Positions 6,501 to 7,638 of a stretch of 64,000 nt of DNA are shown piece after piece. How positions within the stretch are numbered: position 1 is the stretch's first letter; each line of letters begins with the position of its first letter. This DNA is from an uncultured Candidatus Saccharibacteria bacterium (GTDB taxonomy: Bacteria; Patescibacteriota; Doudnabacteria; UBA920), in NCBI GenBank assembly GCA_964536745.1, contig CAZHYL010000003.1:1001-65000 (forward strand), written 5' to 3'. The notes beneath the pieces were generated by a model, which was not told the DNA's origin, did not search any database, and saw nothing but the letters and a program-made list of their open reading frames with translations. Made by a program: the position numbers and the translations under genes.

Positions 6501-7638
6501 TGCTTCTACCTTTGATGACGTTGTGGTCTATGGATTGGCCCCAGTCGATACTGTACCAGATGCACCAACCATTGGTACTGCAACCGCAGGCAATGCTGCT
6601 GCGACAGTAACTTTTACTCCTCCTAATTTTAATGGTGGGAGTGCCATTACCAGTTATACCGTTACATCTTCCCCAGGGAATATTACTGCCACCGGCTCAT
6701 CTTCACCAATTACGGTAACAGGGTTAACTAATGATGTTGCTTACACATTTACAGTAAAAGCTACTAACTCACAGGGTGACTCAGTGGCTTCTAGTGCTTC
6801 GAATTCGGTAACTCCTGCATTGCCTGCTGCACCAGGTCAGGTGACAGGGCTTGTTGCGACAGGATTTAATCAACAAGTTTTATTAGGCTGGGACGCCCCA
6901 AGTTCTGGTGGTACTCCAACTGACTATATAGTTGAGTATAAACTTTCTTCAGAGCCAACCACCTGGACAACTTTTAATGATGGAACTTCTACCAGTCTTA
7001 AAGCTATTGTAACTGGGTTAACCAATGCCGCGGCTTATGATTTTAGAGTAAAGGGCTCTAATGATGGCAATCCTGGTACTGTATCTAGTACAGTTTCTGC
7101 TACACCAGATGCTATTACAACTCTTAGTTTTGTTATTACTGGAGAAAGTAACTCCGGAGGTATTGGTTTAAATAGTGACGCTACAGCTGGGGAGTTGGCG
7201 GCTCGCTCGGCTGTTCAAATTATGAATTTAACTTCCGGGCAATTCTTGTTTGAAAATCTTGATATTGGAACAAATAACTTGAGGGATCATGCTGGACTTG
7301 AAGGTTATTACGATTGTTGCCATGGTTTTGAACTACAATTGGCTAACTCTACTGAAGCTAATGCGTTTCCAGATAATGCTCAAGTTTATTTAACAAAGAC
7401 TGGGCATGGCGGATCGCAAGTGACTCAGTGGGGGGTCGGTCAAACATATTGGACCAAGTTTTTACAAAGAACCGCTGCGGCAAAAACTCAACTTCCTGCA
7501 GATCGCAAGTGGGTTGTATTCTTGAGTCTTGGTATCAATGATGCCATTGCTGGTAATAATGTAAATACTTGGAAAACCAATATGGCAGAGTGGATGGATA
7601 GAATAAAAGCTGATTTACCGGGGCAATTATTATCATGA
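3544..7638 (+). CDS. Giant surface protein, N-terminal part (1364 aa). It has a signal/TM anchor, two ConA-like lectin/glucanase-type domains, multiple FN3 modules and a LamG-like jelly-roll, and it starts an SGNH/SASA-like esterase domain. It is interrupted at 7636 by a frameshift (see next feature).
   Basis: TTG start with hydrophobic N-terminus LFIAPLLLVLVFVLLGYL. Duplicated ~200-aa domain 'L(S/T)D(D/S)FTGTTI(D/N)T(L/D)KW…YKMK…FEVYK…FDDV'. FN3 consensus repeats. LamG_3-like 'LVLWLDGDDS…IRFDGTDDYL…GDIAEVIAYS'. SGNH blocks 'VITGESNSGG' and 'LSLGINDA'. Confidence 0.7.
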   Translation: MQILSLFRNKLFIAPLLLVLVFVLLGYLKVDAATLLSDDFTGTTIDTLKWTETDTAGSGGTTGNITQNGTMSIANSYVAATWGTNSLVSADVFDSDTLEISAVMTNNSDQLLGYGDPNFQTAGTKAYILDMVSTTIYTLVWNNGSLVGSNFSCGTFTDGATYKMKLLASSFEVYKNDVLQCTQSTSGTSIDNETVFLQSSGTASIFDDVLVTGNGAATEPGAPTSLSATAGDTQVGLTWSAPASNGGSAITDYIVEYKLTSEPTTWSTFSDGTSTSTSATVTSLSNGSGYDFRVSAVNAIGTSVASGTASATPSAPTAPAAPTIGTAIAGDGSASVSFTPNSNGGSAITGYTVTSSPGGFTGTGSSSPITVSGLTNGVAYTFTVTATNAIGTSSASGASNSVTPDEAIPPSIPNLVLWLDGDDSANMSLTSTSIDQVNDKSGNGKHGTATTTVRPTLVSGALNGRSVIRFDGTDDYLNINSSVTYRTVIVVAKKSTSAAFSNYPGLIGDFTGTSPSNGHILNGIDATTKLGTATSSFTSAYRNGTSIAGSGGHDFSPLNEYWIGVFELASSMTNTTSSIGMINGGGRYWNGDIAEVIAYSSTITTDQRNILENYLSTKWGIAVSGPTAPDAPTALGATRGSTQVGLSWTAPADNGGSSITDYVIEYKLSSEPTTWSTFNDGTSTSTSTTVTGLTNGLSYDFRVKAVNAIGTSTASGTATKTPGPPIAPDPPTSVTAEGGNTQATITFTAPVDNGGASITSYTATSSPGGFTSSGASSPLTVTGLSNGVEYTFTVTATNSAGTSSASSASNAVTPSTLANQLTDSFTGTTINTDKWYEYDPTGSGGATGKIQQNGSLTIADSYSGSWGQNALISQDVFDATSLEISASITAVSAPLIGYGDYDFGSSGKKAYLLYLTGPNTNILALSWEDASYTSTSCGTSAAGAATYKMKVISGGFEVYKDNVLMCTHNTSVVVNNKPVFLENSAAASTFDDVVVYGLAPVDTVPDAPTIGTATAGNAAATVTFTPPNFNGGSAITSYTVTSSPGNITATGSSSPITVTGLTNDVAYTFTVKATNSQGDSVASSASNSVTPALPAAPGQVTGLVATGFNQQVLLGWDAPSSGGTPTDYIVEYKLSSEPTTWTTFNDGTSTSLKAIVTGLTNAAAYDFRVKGSNDGNPGTVSSTVSATPDAITTLSFVITGESNSGGIGLNSDATAGELAARSAVQIMNLTSGQFLFENLDIGTNNLRDHAGLEGYYDCCHGFELQLANSTEANAFPDNAQVYLTKTGHGGSQVTQWGVGQTYWTKFLQRTAAAKTQLPADRKWVVFLSLGINDAIAGNNVNTWKTNMAEWMDRIKADLPGQLLS

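What the first reader, a model, noticed from the sequence alone, without database searches (positions are those of the whole stretch)
7614..7638. One-base frameshift in a GGGG run splits an ~1,970-aa surface protein inside its SGNH/SASA esterase domain
ORF 3544-7638 ends in the middle of an SGNH hydrolase domain. Blocks 'VITGESNSGG' and 'LSLGINDA' are present, but block V 'DANHWS' lies in the next ORF (7635-9467), in frame -1. Frame 0 is open back to 7614. Inserting a single G in the run GGGG at 7620-7623 fuses the two ORFs into a natural-looking sequence …KADLPGAIIIMTGFQSMGYSS…DANHWS…. The candidate explanations are a sequencing or assembly indel, recent pseudogenisation, or slipped-strand phase variation of a surface protein.
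Basis: seen in the sequence. Interest (0 to 1): 0.6.

Follow-up and report, generated by a model that had tools for sequence, protein, structure and literature searches.

The report
Recent one-base frameshift in surface-protein gene
A 1,974-residue secreted surface protein of an uncultured Saccharibacteria bacterium is cut in two in this strain by loss of one G from a GGGGG run inside its esterase domain; other samples of the same species carry the intact gene, so this is an ordinary, very recent gene-inactivating mutation.

Summary
ORF 3544-7638 and ORF 7635-9467 are two pieces of one gene. Adding one G to GGGG at 7620-7623 gives a 1,974-aa protein.

- **Fused sequence exists elsewhere.** It is found as a single ORF in other assemblies of the same species: 9 assemblies carry G5, at 99.1-99.96% nucleotide identity. 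Three other Saccharibacteria species also have a single ORF of 1,984-2,098 aa.
- **Position of the break.** It lies inside an SGNH/SASA esterase domain, just before a core beta-strand. The catalytic Ser is left upstream and the Asp-x-x-His downstream.
- **Not an obvious artefact.** G4 appears in this window and in two separately assembled sequencing runs. All 87 homopolymer runs of 5 or more bases in the 15.1 kb shared with an independent assembly agree.
- **No sign of decay.** Differences from intact alleles are 5 synonymous/0 nonsynonymous and 14/2.
- **Alternatives poorly supported.** Programmed frameshifting and a dedicated phase-variation tract both fail their tests: there is no conserved slippery site, no downstream structure, the tract is only 4-5 bases, and most orthologues lack it.
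- **Side result.** A second, independent frameshift (+C at 5588) splits the same gene in three other assemblies. Homologues in two other species each carry a single in-frame stop.

Verdict: a real, recent, strain-level pseudogenising deletion of a known kind. Interest is low.

The parts
3474..3502 (+). Promoter-like site (TTGATT-17-TATAAT, TG extended) upstream of the gene
   Evidence: It is a consensus match only. No promoter-like or terminator-like site of comparable quality lies between the two ORFs on the + strand.
3544..7638 (+). ORF1: N-terminal fragment (1364 aa) of the split gene. It holds a signal peptide, two Pfam-less repeated N-terminal-type domains, six FN3 stretches and the first 170 residues of the SASA domain. 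It ends with 4 out-of-frame residues (QLLS) and TGA.
   Evidence: It aligns over its whole length to single-ORF orthologues.
3544..3639 (+). Probable Sec signal peptide (LQILSLFRNKLFIAPLLLVLVFVLLGYLKVDA|A)
   Evidence: Read from the translation: basic n-region, hydrophobic core, V-D-A before the break. This is inference; no signal-peptide predictor was available.
5588..5589 (+). CC that is CCC in three other assemblies of the same species (a second, independent frameshift allele). It is intact in this window.
   Evidence: L024 SRR16481187, L039 SRR34704514, L047 SRR34704505.
7114..7838 (+). SGNH/SASA (CE6-like) esterase domain, interrupted by the frameshift at 7620-7623
   Evidence: Pfam PF03629 gives 48.3 bits over profile 5-218/226 on the fused sequence. 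There are 228 homologues, mostly stand-alone 250-300-aa SASA proteins. The AlphaFold2 model has pLDDT 95.8 and pTM 0.93. Foldseek best matches are 2apj and 1zmb, TM 0.74-0.79.
7147..7149 (+). Codon of the block I nucleophile Ser (GESNS), in ORF1
   Evidence: Invariant column S12 in alignment A1. Coordinates.
7620..7623 (+). GGGG run: the site of the one-base deletion (GGGGG in intact alleles)
   Evidence: Nine same-species assemblies and the closest other species (L005) read CCGGGGGCA. The window, L001 and L002 read CCGGGGCA.
7636..7638 (+). Premature TGA created by the frameshift. It overlaps the ATG of ORF2 (ATGA).
7635..9467 (+). ORF2: C-terminal fragment (610 aa). It holds the last ~72 residues of the SASA domain, two FN3-type domains, an unassigned middle region and a C-terminal repeat domain. 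It has no signal peptide of its own.
7746..7757 (+). Block V Asp-x-x-His (DANH) of the esterase, stranded in ORF2
   Evidence: H215 is invariant and D212 is at least 90% conserved in A1. Coordinates.
8892..9464 (+). C-terminal ~190-aa repeat domain without a Pfam family, shared with the C-termini of many CPR (Candidate Phyla Radiation) proteins
   Evidence: many hits covering ~31% of ORF2 at 55-60% identity, with varied N-terminal domains. (no Pfam match).
9487..9507 (+). Terminator-like hairpin plus T-run after the gene
   Evidence: Consensus match only.

Best explanation
The two ORFs are one gene for a ~1,974-aa secreted, multi-domain surface protein of a Candidatus Saccharibacteria bacterium. 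The domains are a signal peptide, lectin-like and FN3 domains, an SGNH/SASA carbohydrate O-acetylesterase domain, further FN3 domains and a CPR-type C-terminal repeat domain.

In the lineage sampled here, one G was lost from an ancestral GGGGG run (CCG GGG GCA to CCG GGG CA), most simply by replication slippage. Translation then runs four wrong codons into TGA.

Expected consequences (inferred):
- The secreted product is a 1,364-aa N-terminal fragment. Its esterase domain lacks a core beta-strand and the Asp/His of the catalytic triad. It also lacks the C-terminal repeat domain.
- The 610-aa remainder, if made at all (for example by reinitiation at the overlapping ATGA), has no export signal.
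- The esterase is therefore dead and the protein truncated.

The lesion is very young. Nothing else has decayed, and intact alleles dominate the species.

Shown: the split, the ancestral state, allele distribution, domain completeness and constraint. Inferred: the slippage mechanism, the fate of the two products and the surface location.
For: - **One gene.** The fused protein aligns end to end with single ORFs in three other Saccharibacteria species: L005 2091 aa (81%), L003 2098 aa (79%), L006 1984 aa (63%).
- **Ancestral state.** At the junction all orthologues encode DLPGAI. L005 has CCGGGGGCA (G5). The others have CCTGGAGCG, CCGGGTGCT and CCTGGAGCT.
- **Same species.** Nine assemblies from other datasets are G5 and read through (L022, L023, L024, L039, L040, L047, L049, L050, L051). 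They are 99.1-99.96% identical to the window.
- **Reproducible.** G4 is also present in two separately assembled runs, SRR8893624 and SRR8893623.
- **Not a homopolymer-error pattern.** Against L023 the only indel in 15.1 kb is this G. All 87 homopolymer runs of 5 or more bases in that stretch agree. Across 15 assemblies the only net frameshifting coding indels are this one and the +C at 5588.
- **Domain broken.** SASA profile coverage is 5-157 in ORF1 and 5-218 when fused. The invariant residues T176, F178, M181, H215 and W216 fall after the break. The model places the break just before strand 172-176. The fold matches 2apj and 1zmb.
- **Constraint, hence recency.** Synonymous/nonsynonymous differences are 5/0 against L023 and 14/2 against L022. 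dN/dS is 0.06-0.09 against other species. The downstream half is also constrained.
- **One transcription unit.** There is a promoter-like site before ORF1 and a terminator-like site after ORF2.
Against: - No reads could be inspected. The G4 records (MAG, SRR8893623, SRR8893624) probably come from one study, so a study-specific systematic error is not formally excluded.
- The absence of any further decay is equally what a sequencing error or a reversible switch would give.
- The fate of the two polypeptides is untested. A low level of full-length protein could arise from -1 slippage of tRNA-Gly on G GGG, which would restore exactly the wild-type sequence.
- Surface location and esterase substrate are inferred from domain content only.
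Confidence: 0.74

Rival explanations
1. Slipped-strand phase variation: the G run is a contingency tract that flips between G5 (on) and G4 (off), switching a surface protein reversibly within populations.
For: - G4 and G5 occur on almost identical backgrounds. L023 and L040 differ from the window by 5-7 substitutions in 13-15 kb, clustered at 8843-9089.
- The target is a large surface protein, the usual class of phase-variable genes.
- A second short-run indel (CC to CCC at 5588) also switches the gene off in three other assemblies.
- Homologues in L004 and L007 carry single stops.
Against: - The tract is only 4-5 bases, far below the 7 or more typical of homopolymeric contingency loci (own knowledge).
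- G/C runs of 5 or more are commonplace here: 26 in 64 kb. A G6 at 7430-7435 in the same gene is invariant.
- Three of four orthologues encode the same Pro-Gly-Ala without a run, so the tract is not maintained.
- G4 is confined to one study's samples, while 9 other assemblies are G5.
- The other disruptions are not repeat-mediated (a 2-base run and two nonsense codons). That fits ordinary mutation better than a switch.
Confidence: 0.12
2. Sequencing or assembly artefact: the genome really has G5 and the gene is intact.
For: - A homopolymer is the classic site of indel error.
- All G4 records may derive from one study.
Against: - Two runs assembled independently of the MAG both give G4.
- Those contigs are 99.99-100% identical to the window over 8-11.5 kb.
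- All 87 homopolymers of 5 or more bases, including nine of 7 bases, agree with an unrelated dataset. There is therefore no sign of homopolymer-prone chemistry.
- A comparable frameshift allele at 5588 is reproduced in three runs from two accession series. Real frameshift alleles of this gene do circulate.
Confidence: 0.1
3. Programmed -1 ribosomal frameshifting (or transcriptional slippage) at CCG GGG C that normally produces the full-length protein from the split gene.
For: A -1 shift of tRNA-Gly from GGG (7621-7623) to GGG (7620-7622) would re-pair perfectly and give exactly the wild-type ...LPGAIII... sequence (read). Some leaky read-through is therefore conceivable.
Against: - The shift is not conserved. 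Every orthologue and 9 same-species assemblies are plain single ORFs.
- There is no X XXY YYZ heptamer: the P-site codon CCG would have to re-pair on ACC.
- There is no significant downstream structure (87 nt, z = -0.99).
- A 4-base run is too short for efficient transcriptional slippage (own knowledge).
Confidence: 0.02

Closest known systems
Young frameshift pseudogenes caused by short homopolymer indels in host-dependent, reduced-genome bacteria (own knowledge, e.g. the poly(A)-tract lesions described for insect endosymbionts)
   Same: A single-base length change in a mononucleotide run splits an otherwise intact, constrained gene. Intact alleles and orthologues exist. There is no secondary decay yet.
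   Different: Here the run is G5, not a long A/T tract. No rescue by polymerase slippage is expected or shown. The organism is a Saccharibacteria MAG and its lifestyle was not examined here.
Homopolymeric-tract phase-variable surface proteins (contingency loci of Campylobacter, Neisseria, Haemophilus; own knowledge)
   Same: A G-run length change switches a surface protein's reading frame. Both lengths are seen among near-identical genomes.
   Different: The tract is 4-5 bases rather than about 7-13 or more. It is not conserved in orthologues. No within-sample heterogeneity could be shown. The other disruptions of the gene are not repeat-based.
SASA / carbohydrate esterase family 6-like SGNH hydrolases (Pfam PF03629; structures 2apj and 1zmb)
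   Same: The fused domain has blocks I, II, III and V, matches PF03629 over nearly its full length, and its model superposes on 2apj and 1zmb at TM 0.74-0.79.
   Different: Most homologues are stand-alone 250-300-aa proteins. Here the domain is embedded in a ~2,000-aa FN3-rich protein. In this strain it is cut between block III and block V.
Giant extracellular proteins of CPR bacteria (e.g. the hypervariable repeat surface protein of a Gracilibacterium, PMC6851277)
   Same: It is a very large, N-terminally anchored or secreted protein of a CPR bacterium that varies between closely related populations.
   Different: In that case the variation is nucleotide hypervariation in a repeat with the amino-acid sequence kept (PMC6851277). 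Here it is loss-of-function lesions in an otherwise conserved gene.

Membership tests
SGNH hydrolase, SASA/CE6-like (PF03629) | Profile match above the curated cut-off over the full domain | tested here: met
   The fused domain scores 48.3 bits against a cut-off of 24.8, over profile 5-218/226. ORF1 alone covers only 5-157.
SGNH hydrolase, SASA/CE6-like (PF03629) | Conserved blocks: I (Gly-x-Ser-x, nucleophile Ser), II (Gly), III (Gly-x-Asn-Asp), V (Asp-x-x-His) | tested here: met
   GESNS (S12), GHGG (G97/99/100) and GIND (N142, D143) are invariant and lie in ORF1. DANH (D212 at least 90% conserved, H215 invariant) is present only in the ORF2 frame.
SGNH hydrolase, SASA/CE6-like (PF03629) | Alpha/beta/alpha SGNH fold | tested here: met
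   The AF2 model of the fused domain has pLDDT 95.8 and pTM 0.93. Foldseek gives 2apj E 2e-12, TM 0.74-0.75, and 1zmb TM 0.79.
SGNH hydrolase, SASA/CE6-like (PF03629) | O-acetylesterase activity on a carbohydrate substrate | not testable with these tools
   No assay is possible, and the substrate is unknown.
Recent frameshift pseudogene | Intact single-ORF orthologues and alleles, with the lesion derived | tested here: met
   L003, L005 and L006 are single ORFs. Nine same-species assemblies are G5. The nearest species has G5.
Recent frameshift pseudogene | The lesion removes parts needed for function | tested here: met
   The break falls before core strand 172-176 and the Asp/His dyad. ORF2 lacks a signal peptide.
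Recent frameshift pseudogene | Relaxed constraint or further lesions after the break | tested here: not met
   Nonsynonymous/synonymous counts are 0/5 against L023 and 2/14 against L022. This is consistent with a very young lesion, and equally with an error or a switch.
Recent frameshift pseudogene | The lesion is real in the DNA of the population | tested here: inconclusive
   It is reproduced in two per-run assemblies and there are no other homopolymer discrepancies. Reads were not seen.
Simple-sequence contingency (phase-variable) locus | A long mononucleotide or short-unit repeat in the coding region or promoter | tested here: not met
   The run is G4/G5 only. There are 26 G/C runs of 5 or more in the window.
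Simple-sequence contingency (phase-variable) locus | Tract-length polymorphism among close relatives | tested here: met
   G4 occurs in 3 records and G5 in 9 at 99.1% identity or higher. Only two states are seen, and G4 comes from one accession series.
Simple-sequence contingency (phase-variable) locus | Tract maintained in orthologues | tested here: not met
   Only L005 keeps a G run. L003, L004 and L006 use CCT GGA GCG, CCT GGA GCT and CCG GGT GCT.
Simple-sequence contingency (phase-variable) locus | Within-population heterogeneity and reversibility | not testable with these tools
   This needs read pile-ups or culture.
Programmed -1 ribosomal frameshift | Slippery heptamer X XXY YYZ | tested here: not met
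   The sequence is A CCG GGG C. Only the Gly tRNA can re-pair.
Programmed -1 ribosomal frameshift | Downstream stimulatory structure | tested here: not met
   MFE is -17.6 kcal/mol against a shuffle mean of -14.8, z = -0.99.
Programmed -1 ribosomal frameshift | Frameshift conserved in relatives | tested here: not met
   All relatives read through in one frame at this site.

The most novel reading that the evidence does not exclude
The giant esterase-bearing surface protein may be under recurrent selection for loss or on/off switching in Saccharibacteria populations. Plausible reasons are that it is a phage receptor or a determinant of host attachment. On this reading, independent disabling lesions keep arising and segregating alongside intact alleles. 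The lesions seen are G5 to G4 at 7620, +C at 5588, TGA in L004 and TAG in L007. This would be a crude contingency behaviour in a CPR bacterium without a dedicated repeat tract.
Probability: 0.12. Interest if true: 0.55.

Novelty: already known. Interest (0 to 1): 0.22.

Why it matters
The main value is for annotation. The two NCBI-style proteins (1364 aa and 610 aa) should be treated as one disrupted gene, and the intact 1,974-aa allele should be used for any functional work. The strain sampled here probably lacks an active surface esterase and a full-length surface protein, while most sampled populations of the species have them.

The side observation could interest people who study how Saccharibacteria interact with hosts and phages. 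Two independent frameshift alleles segregate within one near-clonal species, and homologues in two other species carry single stops. With the present sample this is not distinguishable from what a 6-kb mutational target would collect by chance.

Tried and rejected
- **JGI metagenome DNA scan.** A degenerate pattern allowing G4 or G5 gave no match (one search was a rejected pattern syntax).
- **Protein-guided metagenome scan.** It returned only distant FN3/SASA relatives and no further alleles.
- **Literature search for the run and assembly accessions.** It found nothing, so sample origin and sequencing platform remain unknown. A search for Saccharibacteria + frameshift + surface protein also found nothing.
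- **Shine-Dalgarno test for an independent ORF2 start.** It was uninformative, because most genes in this window lack a detectable SD.
- **Assigning the other domains.** PDB sequence searches and relaxed Pfam searches for the N-terminal, middle and C-terminal domains gave nothing usable.
- **Programmed frameshifting.** Rejected for lack of conservation, heptamer and structure.
- **UGA or UAG recoding as an explanation for the in-frame stops in L004 and L007.** Considered and set aside. Each is a single stop, of a different kind in each species, in a gene of about 1,900 codons or more (the L004 copy runs off its contig).
- **Enrichment of frameshifts in this gene.** Two of two net coding frameshift events among 15 assemblies fall in the gene. 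It makes up about a third of the compared coding DNA, so P is about 0.1, which is not significant.
- **Exact look-up of the NCBI 1364-aa product.** Not on record.
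Full report
**Observation**

The window reads ...GCT GAT TTA CCG GGG CAA TTA TTA TCA TGA at 7608-7638.

- ORF1 (3544-7638, TTG start, 1364 aa) ends ...KADLPGQLLS*.
- ORF2 (7635-9467, ATG start, 610 aa) lies in the -1 frame. That frame is open back to 7614, after TGA at 7611-7613.
- GGGG occupies 7620-7623. Adding one G gives a 1,974-codon ORF reading ...KADLPGAIIIMTGFQSMGYSS...RDANHWS....
- Pfam SASA (PF03629) matches ORF1 over profile positions 5-157 of 226 (30.5 bits). It matches the fused 242-aa domain over 5-218 (48.3 bits). 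Lipase_GDSL_2 also passes its cut-off only on the fused form.

The one clarification is that the frame 'open back to 7614' is the ORF2 frame.

**Is it one gene?**

A scan of one genome per species found orthologues in Candidatus Saccharibacteria MAGs. Three are single ORFs:

| Locus | Coordinates | Length |
|---|---|---|
| L005 | 6980-13255 | 2091 aa |
| L003 | 3009-9305 | 2098 aa |
| L006 | 6737-12691 | 1984 aa |

The fused window protein aligns to them straight across the junction, at 81%, 79% and 63% identity.

At the junction all encode (A/T)(D/Q)LPGAI(I/V). The DNA is CCGGGGGCA in L005 and CCTGGAGCG, CCGGGTGCT and CCTGGAGCT in L003, L006 and L004. The ancestral state is therefore an uninterrupted Pro-Gly-Ala. 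The nearest species has G5, and the window is one G short.

**Same-species alleles**

The 90%-identity protein cluster of the two window ORFs also holds full-length forms. P0123 (1956 aa, called from a start 18 codons further in) is identical to the fusion apart from its start codon. P0125 (1974 aa) differs internally at two residues.

Exact look-ups of these and of two flanking genes brought in 15 further contigs of the same species from independent datasets.

| Site | Allele | Records |
|---|---|---|
| 7620 | G4 | window; L001 (SRR8893624); L002 (SRR8893623) |
| 7620 | G5 | L022, L023, L024, L039, L040, L047, L049, L050, L051 |

The nine G5 assemblies are 99.1-99.96% identical to the window in nucleotides.

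**Real or artefact?**

Reads were not available, but four things argue for a real lesion.

- Two runs assembled on their own both give G4, on contigs 99.99-100% identical to the window.
- Against L023, from an unrelated accession series, the only indel in 15,110 bp is this G. That stretch has 87 homopolymer runs of 5 or more bases, including nine of 7, and none differs.
- Across all 15 assemblies the only net frameshifting indels in coding DNA are this one and one other in the same gene. The remaining indels are intergenic or are compensated pairs a few bases apart.
- The other frameshift (+C, CC to CCC at 5588) is itself reproduced in three runs from two accession series. Genuine frameshift alleles of this gene therefore exist in nature.

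I put an artefact at about 0.1.

**What the break does**

I aligned the fused domain with 20 homologues.

- Invariant and upstream of the break: S12 (GESNS, block I), G97/G99/G100 (block II), N142-D143 (GIND, block III) and L168-P169.
- Invariant and downstream: T176, F178, M181, H215, W216 and G220. D212 is at least 90% conserved (block V, DANH).

An AlphaFold2 model of the fused domain is confident (pLDDT 95.8, pTM 0.93). It places the break immediately before core strand 172-176. After that come a helix, two short strands, the Asp/His loop and the last helix.

Foldseek finds 2apj (Arabidopsis At4g34215) and 1zmb (putative acetylxylan esterase) at TM 0.74-0.79, followed by other SGNH esterases. 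Sequence search had already found 2apj.

The truncated ORF1 domain therefore lacks part of its core and two catalytic residues.

ORF1 keeps what looks like a Sec signal peptide (read; inference). ORF2 has none. The ORF1 stop and the ORF2 start overlap as ATGA, so reinitiation could yield a cytoplasmic C-terminal fragment. That is inference only, and the SD analysis was uninformative.

A promoter-like site precedes ORF1 and a terminator-like hairpin follows ORF2, with nothing comparable between them.

**Age and constraint**

- Against L023, the repaired gene differs at 5 synonymous and 0 nonsynonymous sites.
- Against L022, the counts are 14 and 2 (dN/dS about 0.05).
- Against L005 and L003, dN/dS is 0.06-0.09, and the part downstream of the break is also constrained (0.10-0.15).

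The gene is functional in the species and the lesion is too young to have been followed by decay.

**Rivals**

*Programmed -1 frameshifting* is rejected as an evolved mechanism.
- The shift is absent from all relatives.
- A CCG GGG C is not an X XXY YYZ heptamer.
- The downstream 87 nt fold no better than shuffles (z = -0.99).
- One caveat: a -1 slip of tRNA-Gly on G GGG would restore the exact wild-type sequence, so trace read-through is conceivable.

*Phase variation* is not excluded, since G4 and G5 sit on almost identical backgrounds. But:
- the tract is 4-5 bases;
- such runs are common (26 G/C runs of 5 or more in 64 kb, with an invariant G6 at 7430-7435 in the same gene);
- most orthologues do not keep the run;
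- G4 is confined to one accession series.

**Side findings on the gene family**

- L024, L039 and L047 carry +C at 5588, splitting the gene into 676/694 aa and 1295 aa.
- The L004 orthologue has TGA in place of the conserved FN3 Trp (LSW to LS*).
- The L007 homologue has a single in-frame TAG.

That makes four independent single-hit disruptions among roughly ten sampled lineages or alleles.

The gene is a 6-kb target. Two of two within-species events falling in about a third of the compared coding DNA gives P of about 0.1. I treat this as a lead, not a result.

**Comparison with the known, and verdict**

This is a strain-level frameshift pseudogene, or truncation allele, produced by a one-base change in a short mononucleotide run. 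That is a well-known kind of event. The domain is a bona fide SASA/CE6-like SGNH esterase by profile, motifs and fold. The locus fails the tested defining features of a contingency locus (tract length, tract conservation) and all three tested features of programmed frameshifting.

| Explanation | Confidence |
|---|---|
| Real, non-programmed recent deletion | 0.74 |
| Phase-variable tract | 0.12 |
| Artefact | 0.10 |
| Recoding | 0.02 |

Interest is low (0.22). The practical consequence is that the two ORFs should be annotated as one disrupted gene.

Noticed in passing
window 5588-5589; L024 1993, L039, L047: A second, independent frameshift allele of the same gene. CC becomes CCC in three assemblies of the same species (SRR16481187, SRR34704514, SRR34704505), splitting it into 676/694 aa and 1295 aa. 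These assemblies are G5 at 7620. No assembly carries both lesions.
   Followed up: yes
L004 2514-2516 (CAYNAO010000006.1); L007 7268-7270 (CAZXPB010000007.1): Homologous giant genes in two other Saccharibacteria species each carry one in-frame stop. L004 has TGA at the conserved FN3 Trp and L007 has TAG in a lectin-like domain. With the two frameshift alleles this makes four independent disruptions. Enrichment over background was not demonstrated.
   Followed up: partly
window 8892-9464 and window ~1150-1858: A ~190-aa C-terminal repeat domain (units like GTLI.DG.TIY.I..G.K.GF.S..VF.S.GF.F) has no Pfam match. It is 55-60% identical to the C-termini of many CPR proteins with unrelated N-terminal domains (subtilase, trypsin-like, plastocyanin-like). 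It may be a cell-envelope anchoring module.
   Followed up: partly
window 2-1861 (+), repeat at 1109-1140: This is the 3' end of another FN3-rich giant protein that runs off the left end of the window. It contains a perfect (GGCGGAGGC)x3.6 tandem repeat encoding a run of 12 Gly. That is a better candidate for length variation than the G4 run.
   Followed up: no
window 8843-9089: Substitutions between the window and the near-identical assemblies L023, L024 and L022 cluster in this ~250-bp stretch of the gene's 3' part. All are synonymous against L023, and several are shared between assemblies. This suggests a small recombination tract.
   Followed up: no
window 17531-18075 and 18076-20743: A 545-bp segment holding ORF 17593-18042 (149 aa, no Pfam match, strong AGGAGG) is absent from L022 but present in L041-L044. 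Beyond it, around a large serine recombinase gene (19094-20743; Resolvase + Recombinase + Zn ribbon), identity to L022 drops from 99.1% to 94.6%.
   Followed up: partly
window 9549-9563: CCCCCC AT GGGGGGG palindrome between the giant gene's terminator-like hairpin and the CsoR-like repressor gene (9566-9844). These are the longest G/C runs near the finding. In some assemblies the repressor is called as 88 aa rather than 92 aa.
   Followed up: no
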